A DNA stretch of 64,000 nt from an uncultured Planctomycetia bacterium. GTDB taxonomy: Bacteria; Omnitrophota; Gorgyraeia; Tantalellales; Tantalellaceae. Location of the stretch: the NCBI GenBank assembly GCA_964527765.1, contig CAZGQR010000010.1:1680-65679 (forward strand), given 5' to 3'. Both the position numbers and the translations under genes were made by a program. How positions within the stretch are numbered: the first letter of the stretch is position 1; each line of letters starts with the position of its first letter. Below the pieces are notes generated by a model. That model saw only the letters and a program-made list of their open reading frames with translations. It did no database searches and was not told the origin of the DNA. Positions 15,501 through 64,000 of this stretch are shown one piece after another.

Positions 15501-18500
15501 CGGTAAAAATTCTTATGGTAAAGCCCTCAAGATATTAAAGAATGAGCTGGGGATAAGAGAAGAGCCGGGAGAGGTTACGGAGAAAACGATTCTGGAAAGG
15601 TTCAGGCGAGGCAATATTAAGTGGGCGGATGCCACGAAAAAGGCAAGGAGACATCTTGTAAAGATCCTGGCCGGAGAAGTCGGCAAAAAACCTGCAGGCT
15701 TGCTCGTTTCGGATTTCGGCAAAGAAATCGGAACATTCGGCAATAAACGTCTGGTCGGCCTTTTGGAATTTTACATGAGGGCCGATAATCTTTCAGGCGA
15801 AGGCTCTACAGTGGAAGCTCTCCGGGCCCTGAAGGCGGATCTTGGTATAAAAGATTTTACAGGTTTTAAGGCGCCAGGGCCAGCAGTATTCGCGATCGGG
15901 GCATTTATCGCGGCGTTTTTCGGCAAGCCCGCGCTTTTGTCCGCGACGGAAACATACAGCTTAAGTAGGCTTGCGCTGTCCGGCTTTGCAGCCCATCCCA
16001 TGCTTGCTCCGCCATACTGGGGATTTTTATTGCCCCTTCTGTTGGTTTTCCCCGCTCTTATCTCATTTCTTAATTATATAAAGCCCGCGCCCGAAAGCGG
16101 CAGTTTACCTTGCAGAATCTATTCTTTTCTTAAAGCGCGATCTGAGACCACGGACCGGTTCTTTGGCGCAGAGAAGATCCAGAAAAATATAGAAGGCAGG
16201 AGGCCGTCTCTTAAGGATATAAAATATGTTTTGGGAATACTGGTCGATCTCGGCCTTGTCGAACTGAGAACAAAATGGCACGATGAAGTATATAGATGCA
16301 AAAATCCGCGCTTAAGCCCCGATAAGCACAGAGCCATAGAGAACGTTCTGAATAACCTCGGCGAAAAATTCGCTCCGGAAGAAAAAGAACAGGCGCGGAA
16401 GGAACTTGAAAGGAACGATGTATATACAGATACCGGTAAAGGGTACAAATTTTCCGCGCATAATATAACCGATGATTCTATAAAAGCATTGCAGTTCTCC
16501 AGCGAGAATCTCGGGGAGTTTACCCGGATCTTGGACGATTTTGTTGAGCCGCCAGGCGCTAAGCTCAGCACCGGAAGGCGGCGGGAACTGAAGCAGAATC
16601 TGGAGGATGTTTTACCCTGCGTTGAAAAGATCAAATCGCTATTGAGAGGACTGGGAAAAAGGCAAAGGAAGAACCCGGATGTAATCTGGATCGCTCACGA
16701 TATACATCTCATGGCCATAGATTGTTGCGAGTCTCTCGGGGCAATAATCGGGAACCTGTCCCCGGAAGGAAAAGATAAACAGGGAGAGGGACAGTACGTT
16801 AAGGCAAAAGCCGTTCTCGCAAAACTCCGCTTGATCGACGTCAGAGACTTGAGTAGCGATATAATCCTGGCGAAGGCGGGCTCTCCGCTGAAACGGAAGA
16901 GGCCCGTTCCCGCTGCAAAAGAGGTCGTAGAGGAGATCGAAGAGTCAGACGACGATGACAGTTTACCGGGCGAGGACAGCAGTTTATCGCGGAAGACCGC
17001 TGGATCTGAAGCCCCCGCAGCCACATTTCCAGAGGAAACCGTTGGGTCCGGGGAGGAAGCCGCTAATGAACCGGACAAGGTTCCGGAAATCTCTCAGGAT
17101 GAGTCACCGTCTCAAAAGTTATTAAAGGCCTATAGGGAAATATTAAGAGAGGGTCATAAGCCCACATTAAAGGAACTTGCCGGGAAGCTCAGAGTAAGCG
17201 CTGAAGAGGCGAAAGATGTGCTCGCGCAGGTGAATCTTGAGCTGGGGAAAGCCGGCATGCGGCATCTTACGGTTGAACCGGACGTAAGGCGCGATCTGGC
17301 GGGTCTCCGGGCGGAAGATCCAGACAGGATGCTGCAGGAATACATAAGAAGGGGCAAGGTTATTGAATATGTGAGAGATGAAAGTACCGGGAAATGGCTG
17401 GCGTACCGGTTGAAGTATATTGCAGGCCGGAGCTGGAGGGTGAGAGGAACATCAGAAGAAAGGATCCCGGTCCCGGGACGCGATCTGGACAAAAAGCAGA
17501 ACCGGACACTTAATAGCGTGCTCAGAAATCAGTTCAAAAAACTGAAACTTTCCGATGATAAGATGCCTTCCTTCTGCGTGATGCTCGGCAAGACGGTCAT
17601 AGGATGGGGCGGAGGAATAGAGAAATGCAATATTCTTCATACCGGTTACAGGAGGAAGAGGATATGGATCGGGGAGCATCTATTCAACGATTTCTTGCGG
17701 CCTAAATCCAGCCAGCGCGCGGCAGCCCTGGAAGAAGAATTAAAACATATTAAGGACAGGGATCATGCGGATTCTCATGATGCCGGATACAAGAAGCTTC
17801 TGGCGCGCGTGCTGGAACATGCCAGGAAACTGGATGAACTGGCCAGGGCCCTGACCATGGAAAAACTGAGGTTCGTTAAAGATCATGTCGCCGGATGGGC
17901 ATTTCGTTCTTCGATCAAGACTCACGTGGAATGCGGGAATTTTAAAGAAGCGCTGGAACTTGCGAGGATACTGGAAAGAGTGACCGGTGATTACCACGCC
18001 AAAGAGATCATCGAGAAGATCAAGTCTTTTATTGACTGGAAAAAGACGAAGGAGCCGGAATTAAGGGCCGCAAGAAGCGAAAGACAAAAAGGTAAAGGCA
18101 AGTTGTCCAAGGCAGAACTAAGGGCATTAGACTCAAATGTCAGGAAGCTGGAAGGTCAGAAGAGAAGGATCGAAAAGGCAAAAAGAAACCTGGATCCATT
18201 ATTCAACGGATTGAGGCAATGGATGCCCAGATATATAGATAAGTCGTATTTCGGGGAACTTGGCGCGGCGGATACAGGTACGGTAACAGCGCTGTCTCTT
18301 CTGAGCATGCCGGTCTTGACGCTGCTCTCCGTTTCAGATGAGATCCAGGGGCTGGTGATCGTGCTTGTGGTGCTGACACTGATAGCTACCAGTACGGGAA
18401 TATTGGTCTATCGTGCGATTAAGTGGGCTATCCGGGGCATGACGGGGCAACCGCAGCGTCAGGGTACGCTGAAAAGCTTATCGGAAAGCGCCCCGGAAGA

Positions 18501-55401: not shown

Positions 55402-55857
55402 ATGGCTCAGAACAACAAGACCATCGTTACGAACCGCCAGGCCTTAAGAGATTATTATATTGAAAAAGCTTATGAAGCCGGGTTACAATTATCGGGCAAT
55501 GAAGTTAAATCCTTGCGGGCCGGAAAGGCCAATTTAAAAGGCAGCTTCGCGAGAGTAGAAAGCGACGAGATCATTCTGCATAACATGCACATAAGTCCTT
55601 ACGAATATTCCCGCGAGGATTATGATCCTTTGAGACCGCGGAAACTTCTGCTGCATAAAGCGCAGATAAAACAGATAAAGGTAAAATTGACCCAGCGGGG
55701 GTATACTCTTGTTCCGCTGAAATTGTATTTTAAGCGCGGTTACGCAAAAGTTGAACTGGTCCTTGCAAGAGGGAAAAAACTGTACGACAAGCGAAGGGTT
55801 TTGAAGGAAAAGCAGGCAAAAAGAGAGATCGACAAGGCACTGCGCAGAAAAAGATAA
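55402..55857 (+). CDS. smpB: SsrA-binding protein SmpB
   Basis: IVTNRQALRDYYIEKAYEAGLQLSGNEVKSLR ... HISPYEY ... RPRKLLLHK ... YTLVPLKLYFKRGYAKVELVLARGKK is collinear with SmpB. It lies immediately upstream of tmRNA. Confidence 0.95.
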   Translation: MAQNNKTIVTNRQALRDYYIEKAYEAGLQLSGNEVKSLRAGKANLKGSFARVESDEIILHNMHISPYEYSREDYDPLRPRKLLLHKAQIKQIKVKLTQRGYTLVPLKLYFKRGYAKVELVLARGKKLYDKRRVLKEKQAKREIDKALRRKR

Positions 55858-55858
55858 G

Positions 55859-56244
55859 GGGGGTGACAGGTCTCGACATGTTCTCGTGATCTGAGGGCAG
55901 CATGCAGAGGTTGTCAGGAGGCCTCTTTAAAAACCTGGCAAAAACACAAACGCAGACTACAATCCAGTAGCCGAAGCCGAGTCAATCTTGGCTGAGGATG
56001 CGTTAAATGTTCCCGCATATGCGGGAGCGAGTCCTTTAGTAAGTGCCTTGGGATACTAATAGGGCTACAATCACGCAAGGTCTCTTGAGGTAATACCTCT
56101 TAACCTCAAGCAGTATAAAGGGGCTGCTCCCGGGAAGTGTCCCGTTTACCGGATTTCCCGGGAAAAGACAAAGGTGAACTAAGCATGTAGATACTCTTCG
56201 GTCGGAGTCCATGGACCCGGGTTCAAGTCCCGGCACCTCCACCA
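55859..56244 (+). ncRNA. ssrA: tmRNA (ssrA), ~386 nt
   Basis: 5' GGGGGUG pairs with 3' CACCUCC-ACCA, including the G3·U tRNA-Ala identity pair. The tRNA-like T-arm is GGACCCGGGTTCAAGTCCCGG. A 5' UCUCGAC box is present. It is adjacent to smpB. There is an internal in-frame UAA-UAG double stop at ~56056-56061. Confidence 0.85.
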
Positions 56245-56258
56245 TTTTTTCCAAGCAT

Positions 56259-56292
56259 AAAGCCGATTTCCATCATGGAGTCGGCTTTTTTG
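56259..56292 (+). terminator. Intrinsic terminator of ssrA
   Basis: Stem AAGCCGA(56260-56266)/TCGGCTT(56281-56287) followed by a T-run. Confidence 0.6.
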
Positions 56293-56390
56293 TTGTAAAT
56301 GACTTAAATCACAGGGACATAGATAAGAATATATGTACACATACCGTCAGTTATGGTCAGGGCAAAAATGGCAGTTTTTGGGAAAAATCG

Positions 56391-56420
56391 TGGTGAAATC
56401 GTGGTGGAATCGTGGTGGGA
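56391..56420. repeat. Short tandem repeat (GAAATCGTGGTG x2.5) near the ssrA/island junction
   Basis: ggtGAAATCGTGGTGGAATCGTGGTGGGAT. Confidence 0.6.
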
Positions 56421-56538
56421 TTTTAAGGGATCAGGATGGACACTATTTGGACGCAAGGTAGGGTGTGAGTTTATAAGGTTGACTTATTGAGAATGGACAT
56501 TTATAATTGTTAAATATCGAAAAACATATGGAGTATTT

Positions 56539-57027
56539 ATGCCAAATATACACGGTTTATATTCATTAAGTGAAGTAGCTCTGAAGCTGAATGTTTCTTC
56601 CGCCTGGATCAATAAGATCCAAAAGAGAACTGGTATAGTTCAAAAAGAGGGGGGTAAAGGAAAGCCGAGTTTTTTTAGTGAAAGAGATATTGAGGTCTTA
56701 AAAAATGTTAAATTATTGAGAGTTCTTGATTATTCTCTGGAAGATATTAGGGATCTGTATAATCAAGAAAAAGAAATGCTGAAGTATATTGTGAGCAAAC
56801 CAATATCGAAAACAAAAAAAGGTTTAGGTAAATATATAATCCATTATCCCCATGAGTTTTCAGAAGAAGACTTCTCTGAATTTAAAAAAGAGTTAAGTGT
56901 CAAGGGGGTAGATGATGCCAAAGACCTTCAGACATACCGAGAGATAGAAAGGCGGATGGAGAAGACTTTTAGTGAAGTAAAGAAAAGAGCAGAGAGATTG
57001 CAGGAAGATTTAAAACGCTTTTTTTAG
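56539..57027 (+). CDS. MerR-like HTH transcriptional regulator (island)
   Basis: YSLSEVALKLNVSSAWINKIQKRTGIV...FSERDIEVLKNVKLLRVLDYSLEDIRDL follows the MerR HTH + dimerisation pattern. Confidence 0.5.
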   Translation: MPNIHGLYSLSEVALKLNVSSAWINKIQKRTGIVQKEGGKGKPSFFSERDIEVLKNVKLLRVLDYSLEDIRDLYNQEKEMLKYIVSKPISKTKKGLGKYIIHYPHEFSEEDFSEFKKELSVKGVDDAKDLQTYREIERRMEKTFSEVKKRAERLQEDLKRFF

Positions 57028-57230
57028 AGACAAGGCCCTACGTCTTATCCTATCGACATAGCAGGGAAACTCTCAACGCATAAATACCCATAAATATAAT
57101 TTTTCTTGACGGAGAAGACCTATTCTTGTATAATAAACGACGTAAATACAACGTGTAAACAGATATTTTTTTGACCACAGAATACACGTTGTATAAATGA
57201 CGTATAAAGTTCTTCAAAAAAGGAGGGGAG

Positions 57231-57638
57231 ATGGACAAGTATTTAAGGAGAGAGTACCACGGGCAACAGATTGATTTGAGTAAAATCAATGAGAAGAAAA
57301 CCTGTCTAGGAAAGAACTATTGGGATTATCGTGAAAAAAATACACCGGGATATCTGGGTGGTAATGTGGAGACCAATGTACTGTTTGTACCATGGATAGG
57401 CAGCGAGAGTAAATCGTATTGTCCGGTTAGCGGGAAATGGGTACATTCAGGTGATCTTGATTCTTATGCTGCGGCTGTAATTTTAGATGATGATAATGAA
57501 ATACAGGACATTGAATTCTATATACAAATATTCGCAGGTTATTGTGGAGGAAGGGATTATAAGAAAGTCAAGAAGGTTCCTGACTTTATTTACCATGATT
57601 TTTGGGAAGAAATGAGCAATGTATTAGTAGGTTGGTAA
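57231..57638 (+). CDS. Hypothetical protein (island cargo)
   Basis: ORF with a GGAGGGGAG SD. No recognisable motif. Confidence 0.4.
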   Translation: MDKYLRREYHGQQIDLSKINEKKTCLGKNYWDYREKNTPGYLGGNVETNVLFVPWIGSESKSYCPVSGKWVHSGDLDSYAAAVILDDDNEIQDIEFYIQIFAGYCGGRDYKKVKKVPDFIYHDFWEEMSNVLVGW

Positions 57639-57753
57639 GTATGGTTGGTTTCAGGATGAATAGTTGATGGAAGAAAGGTAATAACAAGGAATAGGGGTTT
57701 CATGTTGGGGCTCCTTACAACTAAAATGAGCCGGAATAAAATGGGGGTATGCA

Positions 57754-57933
57754 ATGAGTATAGAGAGCATGAAAAGGTTTGCTGACGAGATAAAGAGAGT
57801 AATAGACTACTTTGCCAGTGAATTTCAAATGACATATGCTGAGGCTATTGGAGTTATGCAAATGATAATAATGGATATTCATGCGGAGTCCTGGGAATCT
57901 GAAGAGGAGGAATATATTGAAGAGGATGATTAA
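57754..57933 (+). CDS. Hypothetical small acidic protein (59 aa)
   Basis: ATG 57754 to TAA 57931-57933. The C-terminus is acidic (ESWESEEEEYIEEDD). It is below the ORF-track length cutoff. Confidence 0.3.
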   Translation: MSIESMKRFADEIKRVIDYFASEFQMTYAEAIGVMQMIIMDIHAESWESEEEEYIEEDD

Positions 57934-57982
57934 GCAGTTTTCCGATATATTGAATGACTAATTTTAAACCCAGGAGGTAGAC

Positions 57983-58942
57983 ATGAATAGCGGAACTATT
58001 GTAAACCACAAGATGAATTTGAGTGAACAGTATCTTTTACGCAGCGCCTTGCAAAAGGCCATTAGGTGGGGCGAGGTTAATGATGCTCGTTATTTTGCGC
58101 GAAAAATGATAGATGAAGGGAAACCCGGCGGGGTGTTAAATACATTAGCTATAGTTGCAGCGGAAGATGTCGGGTTAGCTGATCCCACCCTGGTTAATTA
58201 TGTAAGGCAGCGTTGTGATGAGTTCGAAAAGTGGGAGAAAGAATCAAAGATAAAAAGGGTAGATGTTAAAGACCACCAAGTAGCATGTTCTATTATTGAC
58301 CGGGCAGTTGTAGCAGCTGCGCTTAGCTATAAAAGCAGACTTCTGCCAATGGCTTCATTTGCGACTTTATATGATATTTATCGGAATGAAGCCTTTGATC
58401 ATAGCATTGAAGGGTATCAGGATCTATTTCTTGATGCATTTCATCAGGGCAATGAGTCAAGAGCCCTTTACAATGCTTACATAATCAAGGAAATATTTGG
58501 TGCAGACGATTCCATCTTGGCGGCGATTAAAAATGGGAGAGAGGGGCGTAATGCCAGATTAATTGGCGATTGGGTGGAAGTATACACAAGAAAAAAGAAG
58601 GACCGGGACAGGCTGTTGTTTGTGGGTATTATTTTGCTATTATTCCGTGACTTAAGTCATGAGCAGGGGGAATATCTGACGGTCATTGATAGAGAGATTT
58701 CTGAGCCAATAGAAGAAACAGAAATACCCGACAGGGCTTATGACAAGCATACTATACGAGGCAAAAGAATGGGACGAGGGCTTGAACACTTCTTAAATGA
58801 GGCTGGAACAGTGCGTAAAGAGAGATTCCCAAATGATTGGCAAGAGAGAGGGAAACAGGCATATCTTGAGGCCGAGAAAGAAGGCCTCGGGAAAACGTCT
58901 AAAATAGTAAAAGCCATTAGGAGGAAATATGAAGAAAGATAA
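57983..58942 (+). CDS. Hypothetical protein (island cargo, 319 aa)
   Basis: ORF with a GGAGG SD. No recognisable motif. Confidence 0.45.
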   Translation: MNSGTIVNHKMNLSEQYLLRSALQKAIRWGEVNDARYFARKMIDEGKPGGVLNTLAIVAAEDVGLADPTLVNYVRQRCDEFEKWEKESKIKRVDVKDHQVACSIIDRAVVAAALSYKSRLLPMASFATLYDIYRNEAFDHSIEGYQDLFLDAFHQGNESRALYNAYIIKEIFGADDSILAAIKNGREGRNARLIGDWVEVYTRKKKDRDRLLFVGIILLLFRDLSHEQGEYLTVIDREISEPIEETEIPDRAYDKHTIRGKRMGRGLEHFLNEAGTVRKERFPNDWQERGKQAYLEAEKEGLGKTSKIVKAIRRKYEER

Positions 58943-59723
58943 GAGGAATAGTTTCATTATTGATCTGCCATTTGCATGTAAGAGAGCTGTTTTAACTCAA
59001 GCCAGGACCCACAGAGATGGAGTATGTCCTTTTATTGCGGAGTTTGATGACGGCAGTAGAAGCTTCATCAAAGGCCCGTATAAGGAGCGAGAAACGGCAG
59101 CAAGGCATGTTCTCTGCAATGAGATAAAAAGGAGACTGAAATCAGCATACCTTCATCCAATAGACTGCGAGGTAAGGGAATATGACGGTACATATTTTCT
59201 GGTGTGTGAAGAGCTGGGCGCAGCAGATTTAGCCAACACCGAAGAAGTAGAGACAAAAATGGACGGGGTATTTAATGTGCTGAAGTACGATTCTGATAAT
59301 GACCTTGTTCCGAATCCCTTTAAGTACGTGGGCGAGATCAATGAGGAGAACCGGAATACCTGGGTACAGATAATGGTTAATTATTGTTTCCGATGGGTCT
59401 TCGGCATAGGCGATGCGGCTAAGCGGAATTTGATGATACAACGGTCTACTGGAAGAATATATTCAACAGATGAGGCATCAATTGACTCAGTTAACCATGA
59501 AAGTATTTGGCACAGTAAGAGCCCAGGGAAAGATGTGCTTGGCTTAGTCCGTGAGTTTACCGAAGATGAGGAGTCGTTGTCTATAGTAATAGATGAGGTT
59601 AGGCGCTGGAAACGGCATGTAAATGCAGTTTGTTGCGAATTTGGCCTAAATCCAGTAAATATCGAAAGGAGGGTAGATGTGTTTCTCGAGGATCCTGAGA
59701 GAGTGCTAATGTTTGTGAAGTAA
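58929..59723 (+). CDS. Hypothetical protein (island cargo, 264 aa), overlapping the upstream gene by 14 nt
   Basis: ORF with an AGGAGGAAA SD. No recognisable motif. Confidence 0.45.
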   Translation: MKKDKRNSFIIDLPFACKRAVLTQARTHRDGVCPFIAEFDDGSRSFIKGPYKERETAARHVLCNEIKRRLKSAYLHPIDCEVREYDGTYFLVCEELGAADLANTEEVETKMDGVFNVLKYDSDNDLVPNPFKYVGEINEENRNTWVQIMVNYCFRWVFGIGDAAKRNLMIQRSTGRIYSTDEASIDSVNHESIWHSKSPGKDVLGLVREFTEDEESLSIVIDEVRRWKRHVNAVCCEFGLNPVNIERRVDVFLEDPERVLMFVK

Positions 59724-59923
59724 TGGAAATACAATTATGAGAAGGCGGCTCCAACTGAGGGGTCGCCTTTTTCTTTTACCGGGGCTTATACCTTGTTAGA
59801 ATATCCCTGTTTTACCCGGAAAACTCGTTTTAGTATGCCTCTCAGCATAGATTTGGGTGGACAAGGGGGTTTCCCCAGGGAGGGCCAATAGGCGCCCAAA
59901 AACCATACAAAAAGGGGGTAAAT

Positions 59924-60127
59924 ATGGAAAAGCTAATGACAGTTAAGGGCCTGAGCGAGTGGCTCCAGGTGAGCCCTAGCACGATCTACCAGTGGACGCA
60001 TACTGGGTTCATTCCGCACTATAAGATCCCTAAGGGCGTAAGATTTAGGCCCTCTGAGGTCGAGCGGTGGCTCCAAAAACGCAGAAAAAAGGGGAGGGCC
60101 AGCTATAAATTAGATATTTCTTTATAA
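59924..60127 (+). CDS. AlpA-family phage transcriptional regulator / excisionase-like HTH
   Basis: LMTVKGLSEWLQVSPSTIYQWTHTGFIPHYKIPKGVRFRPSEVERWL matches the AlpA/Xis HTH_17 pattern. Confidence 0.75.
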   Translation: MEKLMTVKGLSEWLQVSPSTIYQWTHTGFIPHYKIPKGVRFRPSEVERWLQKRRKKGRASYKLDISL

Positions 60128-60173
60128 TATTACTACCCGGTGCTATAATGTAACAAAATGTAATAGGAGAATT

Positions 60174-60347
60174 ATGCCTAAAATAGAACAATATCTTACA
60201 GCTGAAGAAGTTGCGCAAGCTTTAAAACTCCATCCTTATACTGTTAGACGACTCTGCCGGGAAGATAAGATTCCCTGTTTTAAGTTCGGGGGGCAGTGGA
60301 GATTTAGTAAGAATGAGATAGAAGCTTGGAGAAGAAAGAAGCAGTGA
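60174..60347 (+). CDS. Excisionase-family DNA-binding protein (HTH_17), 57 aa
   Basis: MPKIEQYLTAEEVAQALKLHPYTVRRLCREDKIPCFKFGGQWRFSKNEIEAWRRKKQ. A TATAAT box lies at 60145-60150 and GGAGA is 5 nt upstream of the ATG. It is below the ORF-track length cutoff. Confidence 0.65.
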   Translation: MPKIEQYLTAEEVAQALKLHPYTVRRLCREDKIPCFKFGGQWRFSKNEIEAWRRKKQ

Positions 60348-60366
60348 GAGATTAGCAAGGAGTTAT

Positions 60367-63153
60367 ATGCCTCAAATGTATAGAGGGCCAGAAGATCAGG
60401 CAAGACATGAAAGGATAAATCCTGCTTTAGAAGCAGCTGGATGGGAAGTGCAACACTTCTCCACAGCCAATATTTATGCCTCTAAGGGGGTTGCTGTTGA
60501 ATATTTTCAGATGGGTAAAGGAGTAGGTGAGGCTGACTACGTGCTCTTTGTAAACGGCAAAGCCGTTGGCATTATCGAAGCAAAGAAAGAAGGAGAAACC
60601 CTTATAGGCAAAGAGTTCCAGTCGGGAAAGTATGCCCAGGGTTTTCCCAAAGAATTCCAGTATGTAGATCTGCCCTTACCATTTGTGTATGAATCAACTG
60701 GGTCAGAAACAAGGTTTACCAATCTGTGGGATCCTAAGCCAAGGAGCAGAGAGGTTTTTAACTTTCACAAGCCTGATACAATGGAAGAATGGGTAAATGA
60801 CAACACTGATACCCTCCGGAAAAGGTTGCTGAAACAGGCTGATATTGAGAATAAAGGTTTATGGGATGTTCAGAAAAGAGCTGTAGAAAGCCTTGAAGAC
60901 TCATTAAGAGGAGCTCACCCCAGGGCTCTTATCCAGATGGCGACAGGTTCAGGTAAGACATACACAGCGGTAAATATCTGCTATCGTCTTATCAAAAATG
61001 CCAAAGCAAAGAAAATCCTATTCTTGGTTGATAGAGGCAACCTGGGGCACCAGACATTACAGGAGTTCCAGAATTTCACTGTTCCCAAGGATGGACGCAA
61101 GTTTACGGAACTCTATAATGTGCAGCATTTGACTTCTAATGTAGTAGATGATGTTTCAAGGGTATGCATATCCACCATACAGCGGGTCTACTCGATGCTT
61201 AAAGGGGAGAAGGAGTTAGATGCGGTAGATGAAACAAAGTCAGGCTTTGAGTCAGATTATTTTCTTGCGCCTGCTCCGGTTGAATACAACCCGATGATAC
61301 CGATAGAGACATTTGATTTTATTATAGTTGATGAATGTCACAGGTCGATCTATAACCTCTGGAAACAGGTGCTTGATTATTTTGATGCTTTTCTTGTCGG
61401 TCTTACCGCGACTCCCTCTAAAAGTACTATAGGGTTCTTTAACAAAAACCTTGTCATGGAATATACACATGAAGAAGCTGTTGCCCATGATATCAATGTT
61501 GATTTTAGTGTTTACAAGATAAGAACAAAAATCACAGGGGAAGGGTCAACAATAAACGCTGGTGAGGTTGTCCAGAAAAGAGACAGAAGGACCAGGAGAA
61601 AAAAGTGGGAACAGCTTGAGGATGAGGTGACCTATGATGCCGACCAGCTTGACAGGGCGGTAGTATCAAAAGACCAGATAAGGACAGTTGTTCGTACATT
61701 TAAAGATAAACTGTTTACAGAGATATTCCCAGGAAGAAAACATGTTCCCAAAACTTTGATATACGCAAAAGACGATAACCATGCAGAAGAGATAGTTGAG
61801 ATAATAAGGGAAGAGTTCAACGAAGGCAATGATTTTGCCGTAAAGATTACATATAAGACAGAGGGTGAGACGCCTGAGAATTTGATAAGGCAGTTCCGTA
61901 ATGATTTTAATCCAAGAATAGCCGTTACGGTAGACATGATAGCAACCGGGACTGATATCAAACCGCTTGAGATAGTTTTTTTCATGCGGTCGGTTAAAAG
62001 CAGGAACTACTTTGAGCAGATGAAGGGTAGGGGAGTGAGGGTTATCAGGAATGACGACTTTAAGGCAGTTACGCCTGATGCCATGGCAAAAGAGAGATTT
62101 GTCATAATTGATGCCGTAGGGGTTACTGAGGATGATGACCTGAGCGATACAAGGCCGCTTGAGCAGTCTCCAAGCATGTCATTCAAGAAGCTTCTCACCG
62201 CTATCCGTTATGGTAAGCCAAACAAGGAACTCCTTTCATCATTATCAGGCAGGTTGGTGAGATTGCACAAGAAACTGACGGATGAACAGATAAAAGAGAT
62301 CAAAGAGCTGACAGGAGGCAAGGGGCTAAAAGACTTTGCTTATGATTTTGTGTTGGCAATAGACGAAGACAGGGTATTTCAGCAGGCTCTTGATGAGTAT
62401 GCAGAAAAAGGTGTGCCCGAAGAATATGCTCCTCAAGAAGAAGACTTGGATAGTGCTTCAGAAAAAAGGATGATAGAAGCTATTAAGCCATTTATCGGTA
62501 ATGCCAAGCTTATGGAAAGGCTCCCTGAGATTAAAGCCGAGACAGAACAGATTATTGATGATGTTTCTATTGATGCAGTTAAAGAGGCAGGGTATTCCCC
62601 GATAGCTACGGAGAAGGCCAAGAGTGTTATTAAATCCTTCAAAGAGTTTATAGAGAAAAATAAAGATGAGTTAACTGCGCTTCAAGCTTTTTACAACAAA
62701 GGCAAGCTGCATTGGGATGACCTTAAAGTATTGTCCGAGAAAATCAAAACACCGCCGTATTGTTTGACTCCAGCAGTAATATGGCAGGCGTATAAACAGC
62801 TTGAGGCAAGCAAGGTGCACGGTAAGCGGCTGACTAAGATAGCAGATTTTGTATCACTATTAAGGTTTGAGCTTGAGAAAGCGGATGAGATAGAACCTTT
62901 CTCAGATACAGTTGATAAGAGATTTTCCAGATGGCTCAGTGAGCAAAGAACTATGGGGGTCGAGTTTACTCAGGAGCAGCTTAACTGGCTTGAGAAGATC
63001 AAACATCATATAGCAGAGTCTATAGAGATTATACCGGATGATTTCGAATATGCTCCATTTGATCAAATGGGAGGGCTAGGAAAAGCCTCCACGGTATTTG
63101 GGCCAGAATTTAATTTAATATTAAGGCAATTATCAGAAACGTTGGTTATATAA
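60367..63153 (+). CDS. hsdR: Type I restriction enzyme R subunit (HsdR; SF2 helicase/translocase + nuclease)
   Basis: The Walker A motif is QMATGSGKTYTAV and the DEAH-box is IIVDECHRS. Motif III TATP and motif VI-like QMKGRGVR are present. The length is 928 aa. It is followed immediately by hsdS. Confidence 0.85.
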   Translation: MPQMYRGPEDQARHERINPALEAAGWEVQHFSTANIYASKGVAVEYFQMGKGVGEADYVLFVNGKAVGIIEAKKEGETLIGKEFQSGKYAQGFPKEFQYVDLPLPFVYESTGSETRFTNLWDPKPRSREVFNFHKPDTMEEWVNDNTDTLRKRLLKQADIENKGLWDVQKRAVESLEDSLRGAHPRALIQMATGSGKTYTAVNICYRLIKNAKAKKILFLVDRGNLGHQTLQEFQNFTVPKDGRKFTELYNVQHLTSNVVDDVSRVCISTIQRVYSMLKGEKELDAVDETKSGFESDYFLAPAPVEYNPMIPIETFDFIIVDECHRSIYNLWKQVLDYFDAFLVGLTATPSKSTIGFFNKNLVMEYTHEEAVAHDINVDFSVYKIRTKITGEGSTINAGEVVQKRDRRTRRKKWEQLEDEVTYDADQLDRAVVSKDQIRTVVRTFKDKLFTEIFPGRKHVPKTLIYAKDDNHAEEIVEIIREEFNEGNDFAVKITYKTEGETPENLIRQFRNDFNPRIAVTVDMIATGTDIKPLEIVFFMRSVKSRNYFEQMKGRGVRVIRNDDFKAVTPDAMAKERFVIIDAVGVTEDDDLSDTRPLEQSPSMSFKKLLTAIRYGKPNKELLSSLSGRLVRLHKKLTDEQIKEIKELTGGKGLKDFAYDFVLAIDEDRVFQQALDEYAEKGVPEEYAPQEEDLDSASEKRMIEAIKPFIGNAKLMERLPEIKAETEQIIDDVSIDAVKEAGYSPIATEKAKSVIKSFKEFIEKNKDELTALQAFYNKGKLHWDDLKVLSEKIKTPPYCLTPAVIWQAYKQLEASKVHGKRLTKIADFVSLLRFELEKADEIEPFSDTVDKRFSRWLSEQRTMGVEFTQEQLNWLEKIKHHIAESIEIIPDDFEYAPFDQMGGLGKASTVFGPEFNLILRQLSETLVI

Positions 63154-64000
63154 ATGGGAAAACAATACGATTGGGAAAAAGTTCCTATAGAAAATATTTG
63201 CAAGAAAATACAATATGGGCTTACTTCGAAATCTGGGTGTGAATATAAGGGGCCAAAGTATTTGAGAATTACAGATATCCAAGAAGGAAGTGTTGAGTGG
63301 GATAGTGTTCCTCGTAGTTCGGTTACATCTGGGTTAGAGAAGTATTTCTTGAAACCAGGAGACATAGTTTTCGCTAGGACAGGCGCAACCGTTGGTAAGA
63401 GTTTTTTAATAAAGACATTGCCTGAAAAAGCTGTATTTGCTTCTTATCTAATTAGGATTATTTCAGATCAAGAAAAAGTTGTTCCCGAGTTTTTATGGTA
63501 TTACTTCCAGTCTCCAATGTATTGGAGTGTTATATCAGAGAAGCAAAGGGGGATAGGTCAACCAAATGTTAATGGTAAAATTTTAGGGGCAATAAGAGTG
63601 CCTATGCCGGAAAGTATAGAGATGCAATCTAAAATGGTTGAAGAGCTCGATGCACAATTTACTCGACTAGATTCAGCAGTAAAAACATTGAAAAAACTAA
63701 AGGACAAACTAAAATCTTATAGACAAAGCATATTAAAGGCCGCTTTTGAGAATAGACTTCTTGAGAGTAATGACAAATGGGAGAAAGGTGCTATTCTGGA
63801 TTATTGCAAAAAAGTGAAACAACTTAATCTTAAATCAGAAAACTTCAATCATTTTACATATATTGATATAAGTTCAGTTGATAATGATAGGCAAAAAATT
63901 GTAGACCCTAAGATACTTGCATCGGACGAGGCTCCTTCAAGGGCCAAGCAAGAGACACTGCCAGGTGACATAGTTTATTCAACAGTTAGAGTTTATTTGA
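63154..64000 (+). CDS. hsdS: Type I restriction-modification specificity subunit (HsdS), 3'-truncated by the window edge
   Basis: The ATG starts 1 nt after the hsdR stop. The N-terminal TRD signature is GPKYLRITDIQEGSVEW ... VFARTGATVGKSFLI. A central coiled-coil region is LKKLKDKLKSYRQSILKAAFE. Confidence 0.75.
   Translation, partial: MGKQYDWEKVPIENICKKIQYGLTSKSGCEYKGPKYLRITDIQEGSVEWDSVPRSSVTSGLEKYFLKPGDIVFARTGATVGKSFLIKTLPEKAVFASYLIRIISDQEKVVPEFLWYYFQSPMYWSVISEKQRGIGQPNVNGKILGAIRVPMPESIEMQSKMVEELDAQFTRLDSAVKTLKKLKDKLKSYRQSILKAAFENRLLESNDKWEKGAILDYCKKVKQLNLKSENFNHFTYIDISSVDNDRQKIVDPKILASDEAPSRAKQETLPGDIVYSTVRVYL

What the first reader, a model, noticed from the sequence alone, without database searches (positions are those of the whole stretch)
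56245..64000. tmRNA-integrated AT-rich genomic island carrying a Type I R-M system in hsdR-hsdS order
The island starts immediately after the ssrA CCA end. Its composition shifts to AT-rich. It encodes MerR-like, AlpA-like and Xis-like HTH proteins, four unknown ORFs (57231-59723) and hsdR (60367-63153) followed by hsdS (63154->). This is a classic mobile defence-island signature. The R-then-S order is less common, so hsdM presumably follows S beyond the window. No integrase is visible within the window. The unknown ORFs between the regulators and the R-M system are candidates for additional anti-phage cargo.
Basis: partly seen in the sequence, partly recalled or inferred. Interest (0 to 1): 0.55.

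Follow-up and report, generated by a model that had tools for sequence, protein, structure and literature searches.

The report
Defence island inserted at tmRNA gene
A mobile-element-derived island of at least 23 kb sits directly after the tmRNA gene of an uncultured Omnitrophota bacterium and carries a complete Type I restriction-modification system, a Gabija system and an integrase; this is an ordinary kind of bacterial defence island, but it also holds an uncharacterised two-gene cassette with a kinase-like protein.

Summary

- **tmRNA and composition.** ssrA lies at 55859-56244, directly after smpB. GC drops from 0.49 in the host to 0.40.
- **Beyond the window.** Identical metagenome contigs extend the sequence. 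hsdR-hsdS is followed by hsdM, two unknown genes and Gabija (GajA/GajB). Next comes a phage-like backbone: sigma factor, PD-(D/E)XK nuclease, an ATPase, an HTH_17 excisionase-like gene and a 378-aa tyrosine integrase ending about 22.96 kb after the CCA.
- **Relatives.** Related Omnitrophota keep the upstream gene order, but none carries these genes after ssrA.
- **Attachment sites.** Five relatives repeat the ssrA 3' end (TCCCGGCACCTCCACCA) downstream, flanked by conserved arms with ATCGTGGTG repeats. The 174 nt after the CCA in the window is one such arm, so the island does start at the CCA end.
- **Open point.** The distal ssrA repeat was not found in the 24 kb available. By analogy with one relative it should lie about 7 kb past the integrase.
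- **Gene order.** R-S-M order is also seen in the two closest annotated homologues inspected.
- **Unknown ORFs.** None matches a known defence family. Two of them (57983-59723) form a conserved cassette associated with mobile elements: an MgsA_C-like protein plus a PI3K/HipA-like kinase fold.

This is a new member of a known kind, of moderate interest.

The parts
55402..55857 (+). smpB (host, context)
   Evidence: PF01668 SmpB on the identical contigs. 79-81% identical to SmpB of Omnitrophota MAGs.
55859..56244 (+). ssrA (tmRNA gene), the integration target
   Evidence: ARAGORN. Rfam RF00023, 156.8 bits, model positions 1-374.
56228..56244 (+). att core TCCCGGCACCTCCACCA (attL core, the last 16-17 nt of ssrA)
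   Evidence: The same 15-mer recurs downstream of ssrA in L007 (3 copies), L012 (2), L015 (2), L018 (2) and L021 (5). Similarity of the displaced copies to ssrA begins exactly at this block.
56245..56418 (+). Island-borne P' arm of attL. It holds a replacement intrinsic terminator for ssrA (56259-56288) and three direct 11-nt repeats AATCGTGGTGG (56386-56418).
   Evidence: It is conserved after a core copy in L008, L012, L017, L007, L018 and twice in L021. The two diverged copies in one tandem array in L021 show that it travels with the islands. Terminator. Repeats: (3 found, 0.82 expected).
56479..57027 (+). Promoter-like site (TTGACT-17-TATAAT, 56479-56507) and MerR-family HTH gene (56539-57027), the first gene of the island
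   Evidence: Promoter scan, 11 of 12 matches. PF13411 MerR_1, E 2.2e-7.
57231..57638 (+). ORF u135, unknown
   Evidence: No hit in Pfam, NCBIfam, PADLOC or PHROGs. Not conserved next to the u319/u264 pair elsewhere.
57754..57933 (+). ORF u59, unknown, with an acidic C-terminus
   Evidence: No family hit.
57983..58942 (+). u319: a stand-alone MgsA_C-like helical protein, first gene of a conserved pair
   Evidence: PF12002, E 1e-6. At least 164 clusters of homologues. AlphaFold2 pLDDT 93. The N-terminal ~130 aa match MgsA/RarA C-terminal domains, Foldseek probability 1.0.
58929..59723 (+). u264: a small protein with a PI3K/PIKK/HipA-like kinase fold, second gene of the pair (overlaps u319 by 14 nt)
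   Evidence: 49-72% identical partners follow the u319 homologue in 5 of 6 other contexts. AlphaFold2 pLDDT 76, pTM 0.78. Foldseek top hits are VPS34/PI3K (E 1.5e-5), HipA and CtkA. GDAAKRNLM...YSTDEA aligns to mTOR GDRHPSNLM...HIDFG (E 0.8, sub-threshold).
59924..60127 (+). HTH_17 DNA-binding gene (67 aa) upstream of hsdR
   Evidence: PF12728, E 2e-13. The MAD1 model gives 49.8 bits against a cut-off of 80.
60174..60347 (+). Second HTH_17 gene (57 aa), 19 nt before hsdR
   Evidence: PF12728, E 3e-17.
60367..63153 (+). hsdR, Type I restriction subunit (EcoAI/EcoEI-like)
   Evidence: ResIII, EcoEI_R_C, HSDR_N and Helicase_C. PADLOC REase_I, E 1e-47. NF008521, 382 bits.
63154..64000 (+). hsdS, cut by the window end. 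The full gene is 411 aa with two target-recognition domains and ends at coordinate 64389 of the extended sequence.
   Evidence: PF01420. Full length on L002 7048-8283, Specificity_I, E 9e-55, two stretches.

Best explanation
The region is the proximal third of an integrative genomic island that recombined into the 3' end of the single-copy tmRNA gene of an uncultured Candidatus Omnitrophota bacterium.

**Attachment sites.** The crossover core is the last 16-17 nt of ssrA (TCCCGGCACCTCCACCA). The island supplies the 174 nt that now follow the CCA. That stretch holds a replacement terminator for ssrA and ATCGTGGTG repeats that probably bind the recombinase or an accessory protein.

**Gene content.** Coordinates continue the window numbering.
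1. MerR-like regulator, u135, u59 and the u319/u264 cassette.
2. Two HTH_17 genes, then a complete Type I R-M system, hsdR-hsdS-hsdM (60367-65864).
3. Two unknown genes on either side of a conserved ~130-nt non-coding landmark.
4. Gabija gajA-gajB (67752-71532).
5. A phage-like backbone: sigma factor, about nine small ORFs, a PD-(D/E)XK nuclease and a 484-aa P-loop protein.
6. An HTH_17 excisionase-like gene and a tyrosine integrase (78072-79208).

**Function.**
- The R-M system methylates the host's own DNA and cuts unmethylated incoming DNA.
- Gabija adds nuclease- and helicase-based immunity.
- The stretch between the non-coding landmark and the sigma promoter is a cargo-exchange hotspot.

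**Shown.** Gene content, composition, the position next to ssrA, absence from relatives, the integrase, and the att architecture in relatives.

**Inferred.** The 378-aa integrase uses this core and these arms. The distal attR (repeats, ~40 nt, core) lies after the PadR/efflux genes that follow the integrase. The repeats are protein-binding arm sites.
For: **Extension of the window**
- Contigs L001, L002, L003, L005 and L088 are identical to the window over their overlaps.
- L097 is identical to L002 over 5466 nt.

**Gene content**
- Gene calls and family hits.
- HsdM scores 666 bits, GajA 925 bits and GajB 834 bits.
- The integrase matches PF00589 (49.6 bits) and phrog_1 (E 7.5e-23). Its sequence shows RRINET, HYFRHRF and LEYYSH, the expected Arg, His-x-x-Arg and Tyr.

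**Foreign origin**
- GC is 0.40 against 0.49 in the host.
- The upstream synteny M48-GT2-YdjC-tRNA-Leu-smpB-ssrA is conserved in 12 or more relatives, and none of 18 island proteins is found after ssrA in them.

**Attachment sites**
- The 15-nt core is repeated downstream of ssrA in five relatives.
- Three displaced cores are preceded by a conserved ~70-nt block with two ATCGTGGTG repeats.
- Cores in eight places are followed by the conserved ~170-nt arm that ends in the same repeats.
- L021 has two diverged copies of that arm in one array.

**Element family**
- L008 has the same arm followed by different cargo, the same landmark and the start of the same backbone.
- L086 has the same sigma backbone (90% nt identity) with other defence cargo (SIR2_2, HD_4/Zeta_toxin) and its own Xis-Int module.
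Against: - No copy of the ssrA core (up to 3 mismatches) or of the ATCGTGGTG repeats lies in the 24 kb that follow the CCA, including the 1 kb after the integrase. The distal boundary of this copy is therefore unseen.
- The integrase stop codon runs straight into a PadR promoter region that is 97% identical to the one in L012. The integrase is thus not next to an att site, which is not the usual layout.
- No island-free contig of this species was found, and no circular junction. The island is identical in at least ten samples, so present-day mobility is unproven.
- The relatives whose islands show both arms (L012, L007, L021) carry no integrase. The link between the 378-aa integrase and these arms is circumstantial.
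Confidence: 0.75

Rival explanations
1. Nested insertion. The 174 nt after the CCA and the PadR/RND-efflux genes belong to an older, integrase-less ssrA island like the 7.45-kb one in L012. The 22.8-kb defence element (56411-79220) inserted later into that island with its own, still unidentified att site at the end of the ATCGTGGTG repeats.
For: - Against L012, homology stops at 56410 and resumes at 79221, and L012 has 207 unrelated nt in between.
- L008's related element starts at exactly the same point.
- The window has three repeat units where the relatives have two.
- The integrase abuts the right-hand junction.
Against: - The two junctions share no convincing direct repeat. There is only a 9-mer, GGTTGACTT, which forms the -35 region of two promoters.
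- Two independent elements (this one and L008's) both pair the arm with the same backbone. That is simpler to explain if arm and backbone are one element.
- The 207 nt of L012 show no trace of the island, so they support neither a deletion nor an insertion.
Confidence: 0.25
2. The element is a phage satellite (P4-like or PICI-like) that depends on a helper phage rather than a plain integrative island. The defence genes would sit in its cargo hotspot, and it would be induced and packaged by a helper.
For: - It has no capsid, tail or terminase genes but does have a phage-type sigma factor (phrog_1740), a PD-(D/E)XK exonuclease (phrog_1218 and phrog_69) and an Xis-Int pair.
- The sister element L086 carries a D5_N/DUF5906 primase-helicase of the P4 alpha type.
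- A variable hotspot lies between conserved landmarks.
Against: - The 484-aa protein in the replicase position has no family hit in this copy.
- No capsid-redirecting or packaging gene was recognised.
- IMG/VR holds no relative of the integrase and no contig with the arm repeats.
- No helper phage is known for Omnitrophota.
Confidence: 0.25
3. The region is a chromosomal variable region or defence hotspot that is no longer mobile: a decayed island, fixed in the population and maintained by selection for immunity.
For: - It is identical in every assembly of this species recovered, at least ten samples. No empty site was seen.
- No distal repeat was found.
- Relatives show many integrase-less islets between core repeats.
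Against: - The integrase and the adjacent HTH_17 gene are intact open reading frames with the catalytic residues present.
- The strong compositional contrast argues against long residence.
- This reading concerns the present state only and does not contradict an origin by integration.
Confidence: 0.3

Closest known systems
Dehalococcoides ssrA-specific genomic islands (McMurdie et al. 2011, PMC3146451)
   Same: - Both are islands integrated at the 3' end of the single-copy tmRNA gene.
- Both have short direct repeats of the ssrA end as boundaries: 20 bp there, 16-17 nt here.
- Both form tandem arrays downstream of ssrA.
- In both, additional conserved nucleotides lie next to the repeat.
- In both, only some islands carry an integration module: 16 of 31 there; here only this one, and probably L008's.
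   Different: - Those islands use a serine recombinase module next to attL. This one has a tyrosine integrase far from ssrA.
- The cargo there is reductive dehalogenases. Here it is anti-phage systems.
- The host phylum differs.
Defence-carrying integrative elements and satellites with cargo hotspots (P4-like satellites, PICIs; pipolins, PMC11551731)
   Same: - A small integrative element without virion genes.
- An integrase plus an excisionase-like HTH gene.
- A replication-type gene.
- A hotspot between conserved landmarks that holds different defence systems in sister elements: Gabija here, SIR2 in L086.
   Different: - No hallmark P4 (alpha, psu/sid/delta), PICI or pipolin (pPolB) gene was detected in this copy.
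- It carries a sigma factor, and its integrase is not adjacent to an att site.
- The comparison with P4 and PICI rests on general knowledge and was not tested here.
Type I R-M systems of the EcoAI/EcoEI-like HsdR lineage with R-S-M order (Gemmobacter aquarius and Polymorphobacter plasmids)
   Same: - HsdR is 43-44% identical over its full length.
- The gene order is the same: R, S, M.
   Different: - Here two HTH_17 genes precede hsdR.
- The recognition sequence is unknown.
Gabija (GajA OLD-family ATPase/TOPRIM nuclease plus GajB UvrD-like helicase)
   Same: Both genes are adjacent, overlap by a few nucleotides, and match the PADLOC models over their full length.
   Different: Nothing notable was seen. 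It lies outside the window.
HipA and PI3K/PIKK-type kinases (for u264)
   Same: - The predicted fold is similar.
- A catalytic-loop-like D-x4-N motif and a downstream D are present.
   Different: - No Pfam hit.
- It is only 264 aa.
- It pairs with an MgsA_C-like helical protein rather than with a HipB-type HTH antitoxin.
- Kinase activity is untested.

Membership tests
tRNA/tmRNA-integrated genomic island | Lies directly at the 3' end of a tRNA or tmRNA gene | tested here: met
   ssrA ends at 56244 and island-type sequence follows.
tRNA/tmRNA-integrated genomic island | Composition differs from the host | tested here: met
   GC 0.399 against 0.491.
tRNA/tmRNA-integrated genomic island | Encodes a site-specific recombinase | tested here: met
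   A 378-aa tyrosine integrase at L097 10385-11521, matching PF00589 and phrog_1. It lies outside the window.
tRNA/tmRNA-integrated genomic island | Direct repeat of the target gene's 3' end at the distal boundary | tested here: inconclusive
   Absent from the 24 kb available. Present in five relatives, including L012, whose island shares 97%-identical PadR/TolC genes with this locus. The sequence of this genome ends before the predicted site.
tRNA/tmRNA-integrated genomic island | Absent from the same site in related genomes | tested here: met
   None of 18 island proteins was found in 10 kb after ssrA in the relatives, while the upstream synteny is kept. No island-free strain of the same species was found.
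Type I restriction-modification system | HsdR with nuclease and SF2 helicase domains | tested here: met
   HSDR_N, ResIII, Helicase_C and EcoEI_R_C. REase_I, E 1e-47.
Type I restriction-modification system | HsdS with two target-recognition domains | tested here: met
   411 aa with two Methylase_S stretches.
Type I restriction-modification system | HsdM N6-adenine methyltransferase in the same operon | tested here: met
   492 aa with HsdM_N and N6_Mtase; MTase_I 666 bits. It overlaps the hsdS stop.
Gabija | Adjacent GajA (ATPase plus TOPRIM) and GajB (UvrD-like helicase) | tested here: met
   GajA 925 bits (AAA_15 and OLD-like_TOPRIM). GajB 834 bits.
MADS (methylation-associated defence system) | MAD1 HTH and the other MAD proteins above the family cut-offs | tested here: not met
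   MAD1 model: 50 bits against a cut-off of 80. MAD5: 42 bits against 400. The Type I models score far higher.
Prophage | Capsid, tail, portal or terminase genes | tested here: not met
   No structural PHROG or Pfam hit among the backbone proteins.
P4-like / PICI-like satellite | Integrase, regulatory HTH and a primase-replicase | tested here: inconclusive
   An integrase and HTH_17 are present. The 484-aa P-loop protein has no family hit. The sister element L086 has a D5_N/DUF5906 primase.
PI3K/PIKK/HipA-like kinase (u264) | Kinase fold with catalytic D-x4-N and a metal-binding D | tested here: inconclusive
   Foldseek E 1.5e-5 to VPS34, on a model with pLDDT 76. The motifs align to mTOR at E 0.8. 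No Pfam hit.

The most novel reading that the evidence does not exclude
The overlapping gene pair at 57983-59723 is an undescribed functional module of integrative elements. It joins a stand-alone MgsA_C-like helical protein to a minimal PI3K/HipA-like kinase. It could be a kinase-based abortive-infection or toxin-antitoxin system, or a host-takeover or maintenance function. The pair stays together across unrelated islands at 49-72% identity and matches no PADLOC model.
Probability: 0.3. Interest if true: 0.6.

Novelty: new member of a known kind. Interest (0 to 1): 0.4.

Why it matters
- **Immunity in an uncultured phylum.** It documents how Omnitrophota acquire and exchange immunity genes. 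The single tmRNA gene serves as a landing pad for a family of islands with defined core and arm sequences.
- **Annotation aid.** The conserved landmarks (core, arms, ~130-nt spacer, sigma promoter region) can be used to delimit these islands and their cargo hotspots in MAGs.
- **A candidate for testing.** The u319/u264 pair is a concrete, testable candidate for a new function carried by mobile elements.
- **Otherwise expected.** Type I R-M plus Gabija on an ssrA island is what one would expect.

Tried and rejected
- **Junction at 56410.** I first took the 174 nt after the CCA for host DNA, because L008, L012 and L017 share it while their downstream genes differ. I dropped this once the core repeats and the duplicated arms in L021, L018, L012 and L007 were seen.
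- **Short att repeat.** I searched for one between the two junctions defined against L012. Only promoter-like 9-10-mers turned up.
- **Deletion remnant.** I tested whether L012's 207-nt spacer is a remnant of the integrase end. The local alignment score equals the shuffle mean.
- **Contig breaks.** Several contigs break inside the tmRNA 3' part (L002, L003, L005, L110). I considered this as evidence of excision. It is better explained by sequence shared among co-occurring species.
- **Metagenome scan.** A scan with the L086 integrase found only two short contigs of a different, tRNA-Ser-type element.
- **Viral-contig scans.** Scans for the arm repeats, the integrase and u264 found nothing. Only distant, shorter u319-like genes without the kinase partner were found.
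- **MADS.** Rejected on scores.
- **Prophage.** Rejected for lack of structural genes.

Full report
**1. The observation**

ARAGORN and Rfam agree on a full-length tmRNA gene at 55859-56244 (+), ending in CCA. smpB ends two bases before it.

GC drops from 0.45-0.50 to 0.33-0.36 just after 56245 and stays near 0.40 to the window end. The host part of the window is 0.49.

The ORFs are as described:
- a MerR_1 protein at 56539-57027;
- four ORFs at 57231-59723;
- two HTH_17 proteins at 59924-60127 and 60174-60347;
- hsdR at 60367-63153, with HSDR_N, ResIII, Helicase_C and EcoEI_R_C;
- the start of hsdS at 63154.

**2. Organism and extension**

SmpB is 79-81% identical to SmpB of Candidatus Omnitrophota MAGs. 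The exact HsdR and SmpB proteins occur on metagenome contigs that are base-for-base identical to the window. One of these is JGI 3300029258 Ga0309772_1000424.

L002 and L097 overlap each other without a mismatch. Together they extend the sequence to 80,283 in window numbering. L002 position x corresponds to x+56106, and L097 position x to x+67687.

| Feature | Coordinates (window numbering) | Evidence |
|---|---|---|
| hsdS, 411 aa, two recognition domains | 63154-64389 | |
| hsdM, MTase_I 666 bits | 64386-65864 | |
| Membrane protein, 281 aa | 65866-66711 | |
| Esterase-like protein, 251 aa | 66903-67658 | |
| Gabija gajA, 925 bits | 67752-69788 | |
| Gabija gajB, 834 bits | 69775-71532 | |
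| 111-aa secreted-type ORF | 71644-71979 | |
| Phage-type sigma factor (phrog_1740) | 72214-72816 | |
| About nine small ORFs | following the sigma gene | |
| PD-(D/E)XK exonuclease | 75206-75946 | |
| 484-aa P-loop protein, no family hit | 76348-77802 | |
| 56-aa HTH_17 gene | 77900-78070 | |
| 378-aa tyrosine integrase | 78072-79208 | |

The integrase matches PF00589 and phrog_1. Its sequence shows the RRINET, HYFRHRF and LEYYSH motifs. No virion genes were found.

**3. Is it an island?**

The upstream gene order is conserved in a dozen related genomes: peptidase M48, GT2, YdjC, a 68-aa gene, tRNA-Leu(CAG), smpB, ssrA. None of 18 proteins encoded after ssrA in this genome is found within 10 kb after ssrA in those relatives. 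What follows ssrA differs in every relative.

Two sister elements define the family:
- **L008.** It has the same 170-nt segment after ssrA. Then come a TrkH-like gene, a 116-nt non-coding landmark 87% identical to 66757-66872, a different 250-aa gene, and the start of the same backbone.
- **L086.** It shares the sigma region at 90% nt identity. Between the same landmarks it carries SIR2_2 plus a 1067-aa protein, and HD_4/Zeta_toxin upstream. It has a D5_N primase and an unrelated integrase (27% identity), followed by a tRNA-Ser-like 3' fragment.

The family therefore has a conserved backbone, a cargo hotspot and exchangeable integration modules.

**4. Attachment sites**

Comparison with L012 first suggested junctions at 56410/56411 and 79220/79221. 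That would have left the 174 nt after the CCA as host DNA.

A search for the last 15 nt of ssrA changed this reading. The block recurs downstream of ssrA in L007 (3 copies), L012 (2), L015 (2), L018 (2) and L021 (5).

- Three displaced copies (L012:18282, L007:8912, L021:17629) are each preceded by a conserved ~70-nt block. It holds two ATCGTGGTG repeats and TTTGAGCAYGAAA. The flanks differ on both sides.
- Core copies in the window, L008, L012, L017, L007 and L018, and two in L021, are each followed by the conserved ~170-nt segment. It contains an intrinsic terminator and ends in two or three of the same repeats.
- L021 holds two diverged copies of that segment in one array. They are 84% and 78% identical to the window's copy.

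The segment therefore travels with the islands. This is the layout expected of an attP made of a P arm, a core and a P' arm. After integration it is split into attL (ssrA core plus P' arm) and attR (P arm plus core).

Calling the repeats arm-type protein-binding sites is an inference.

**5. The unseen distal end**

No core copy (up to 3 mismatches) and no repeat unit occur between 56419 and 80283.

Right after the integrase stop codon the sequence becomes 97% identical to the PadR-TolC genes of L012. In L012 those genes are the first genes of a 7.45-kb integrase-less island bounded by ssrA and a P arm plus core at 18237-18296. SmpB of that genome is only 70% identical to SmpB here. This segment has therefore either moved recently between species, or the co-assembled L012 contig is chimeric.

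The simplest reading is a single element of about 30 kb whose attR lies about 7 kb beyond the integrase. The rival reading is a 22.8-kb element nested in an older island. I could not decide between them.

**6. The R-M system**

It is a complete Type I system. The two closest annotated HsdR homologues I inspected are on Gemmobacter and Polymorphobacter plasmids (43-44% identity). Both have the order R-S-M, one of them with a DUF262 gene inserted. The order therefore appears typical of this lineage, at least among these two, and is not a peculiarity.

The two HTH_17 genes just upstream score below the cut-off for the MADS MAD1 family. They are best regarded as unassigned regulators.

**7. The unknown ORFs**

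None of the four hits PADLOC. u135 and u59 have no relatives in any context examined.

u319 and u264 overlap by 14 nt and form a conserved pair. In five of six other contigs carrying a u319 homologue (49-62% identical), a u264 homologue (49-72% identical) follows directly.

The contexts are integrase-bearing islands. Some contain D5_N primases and a relative of the 484-aa protein. One is rich in nucleases and methylases.

- **u319.** The model has pLDDT 93. Its first ~130 residues match the C-terminal domain of MgsA/RarA, and the rest is a helical domain with no match.
- **u264.** The model has pLDDT 76 and pTM 0.78. It resembles VPS34/PI3K kinase domains, HipA and CtkA.
- **u264 motifs.** GDAAKRNLM...YSTDEA aligns to GDRHPSNLM...HIDFG of mTOR, but at a sub-threshold E of 0.8.

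I take the pair to be a kinase-containing module of mobile elements. Whether it is defence, a toxin-antitoxin system or a backbone function is open.

**8. Verdict**

This is a genuine ssrA-anchored, integrase-bearing defence island, and a new member of a known kind. The closest described analogue is the set of tandem ssrA islands of Dehalococcoides (PMC3146451).

Interest is moderate. The att architecture in Omnitrophota and the u319/u264 cassette are the parts worth following up.

Noticed in passing
window 55859-56244; L006-L025: ARAGORN predicts tmRNA tag peptides in this Omnitrophota clade that end in ALGY, ALAY, ALAF, ALAI or ALAV instead of the usual ALAA. The predicted tag start also varies between relatives, so some of the predictions may be wrong.
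   Followed up: no
L097 11534-12596 versus L012 11218-12280: The PadR and TolC-like genes right after the integrase are 97% identical to those of L012, whose SmpB is only 70% identical and whose upstream genes are 47-73% identical. This means either recent transfer of an efflux island between species or a chimeric co-assembly contig. L012 GC is 0.427 upstream and 0.455 downstream.
   Followed up: partly
L021 11094-17843: Five copies of the ssrA 3' core occur in 6.7 kb, with two copies of the P' arm, one P arm and a 200-nt unit duplicated after two cores. This is a tandem array of integrase-less islets carrying GT2, radical-SAM/methyltransferase, a flavoprotein oxidoreductase and DedA-phosphatase genes.
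   Followed up: partly
L002 10634-10772 (66740-66878 in window numbering); L086 4785-4922; L008 12854-12969: A ~120-140-nt non-coding block (81-87% identical) containing AAGTTGACATAATC precedes the first gene of the variable hotspot in three elements with unrelated cargo. It is probably a conserved promoter or regulatory region, or a recombination landmark.
   Followed up: partly
L086 15571-17570; L092 1300-1565: A sister element with the same sigma backbone has a different integrase. It is followed by a fragment resembling a tRNA-Ser 3' end (..CCCTCTCCGCCA) plus a terminator. In L092 the fragment CTGCCTCTCCGCCA occurs twice, about 195 nt apart. The integration module therefore appears to have been swapped to another target gene.
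   Followed up: partly
L002 9760-11552 (65866-67658 in window numbering): Two genes with no family match lie between the R-M system and Gabija. One is a 281-aa protein with N-terminal membrane helices. The other is a 251-aa protein with a GXSXG motif (AHSLG) and weak DUF676/Tle3 esterase hints. They are possible further defence cargo.
   Followed up: partly
contig ends at window 56107, 56125, 56317-56686 and at L002 ~12809: Several independent assemblies break inside the tmRNA 3' part or the P' arm, and two break at the same point inside gajA. The likely cause is sequence shared with co-occurring relatives, not excision.
   Followed up: partly
L111-L137 (IMG/VR contigs): Distant u319-like genes (27-37% identical), apparently shorter, occur in 35-50-kb viral contigs without a u264-like partner.
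   Followed up: no
L010 4683-5402: Another relative has a distantly related tyrosine integrase (23% identity) about 1.1 kb after its ssrA, so a different island family uses the same target.
   Followed up: no
window 56386-56418 versus 56234-56244: The repeat unit contains TGGTGGA, the reverse complement of the tmRNA 3' end TCCACCA (flags the 2-mismatch match). This may be coincidence or may relate to recognition of the core.
   Followed up: no
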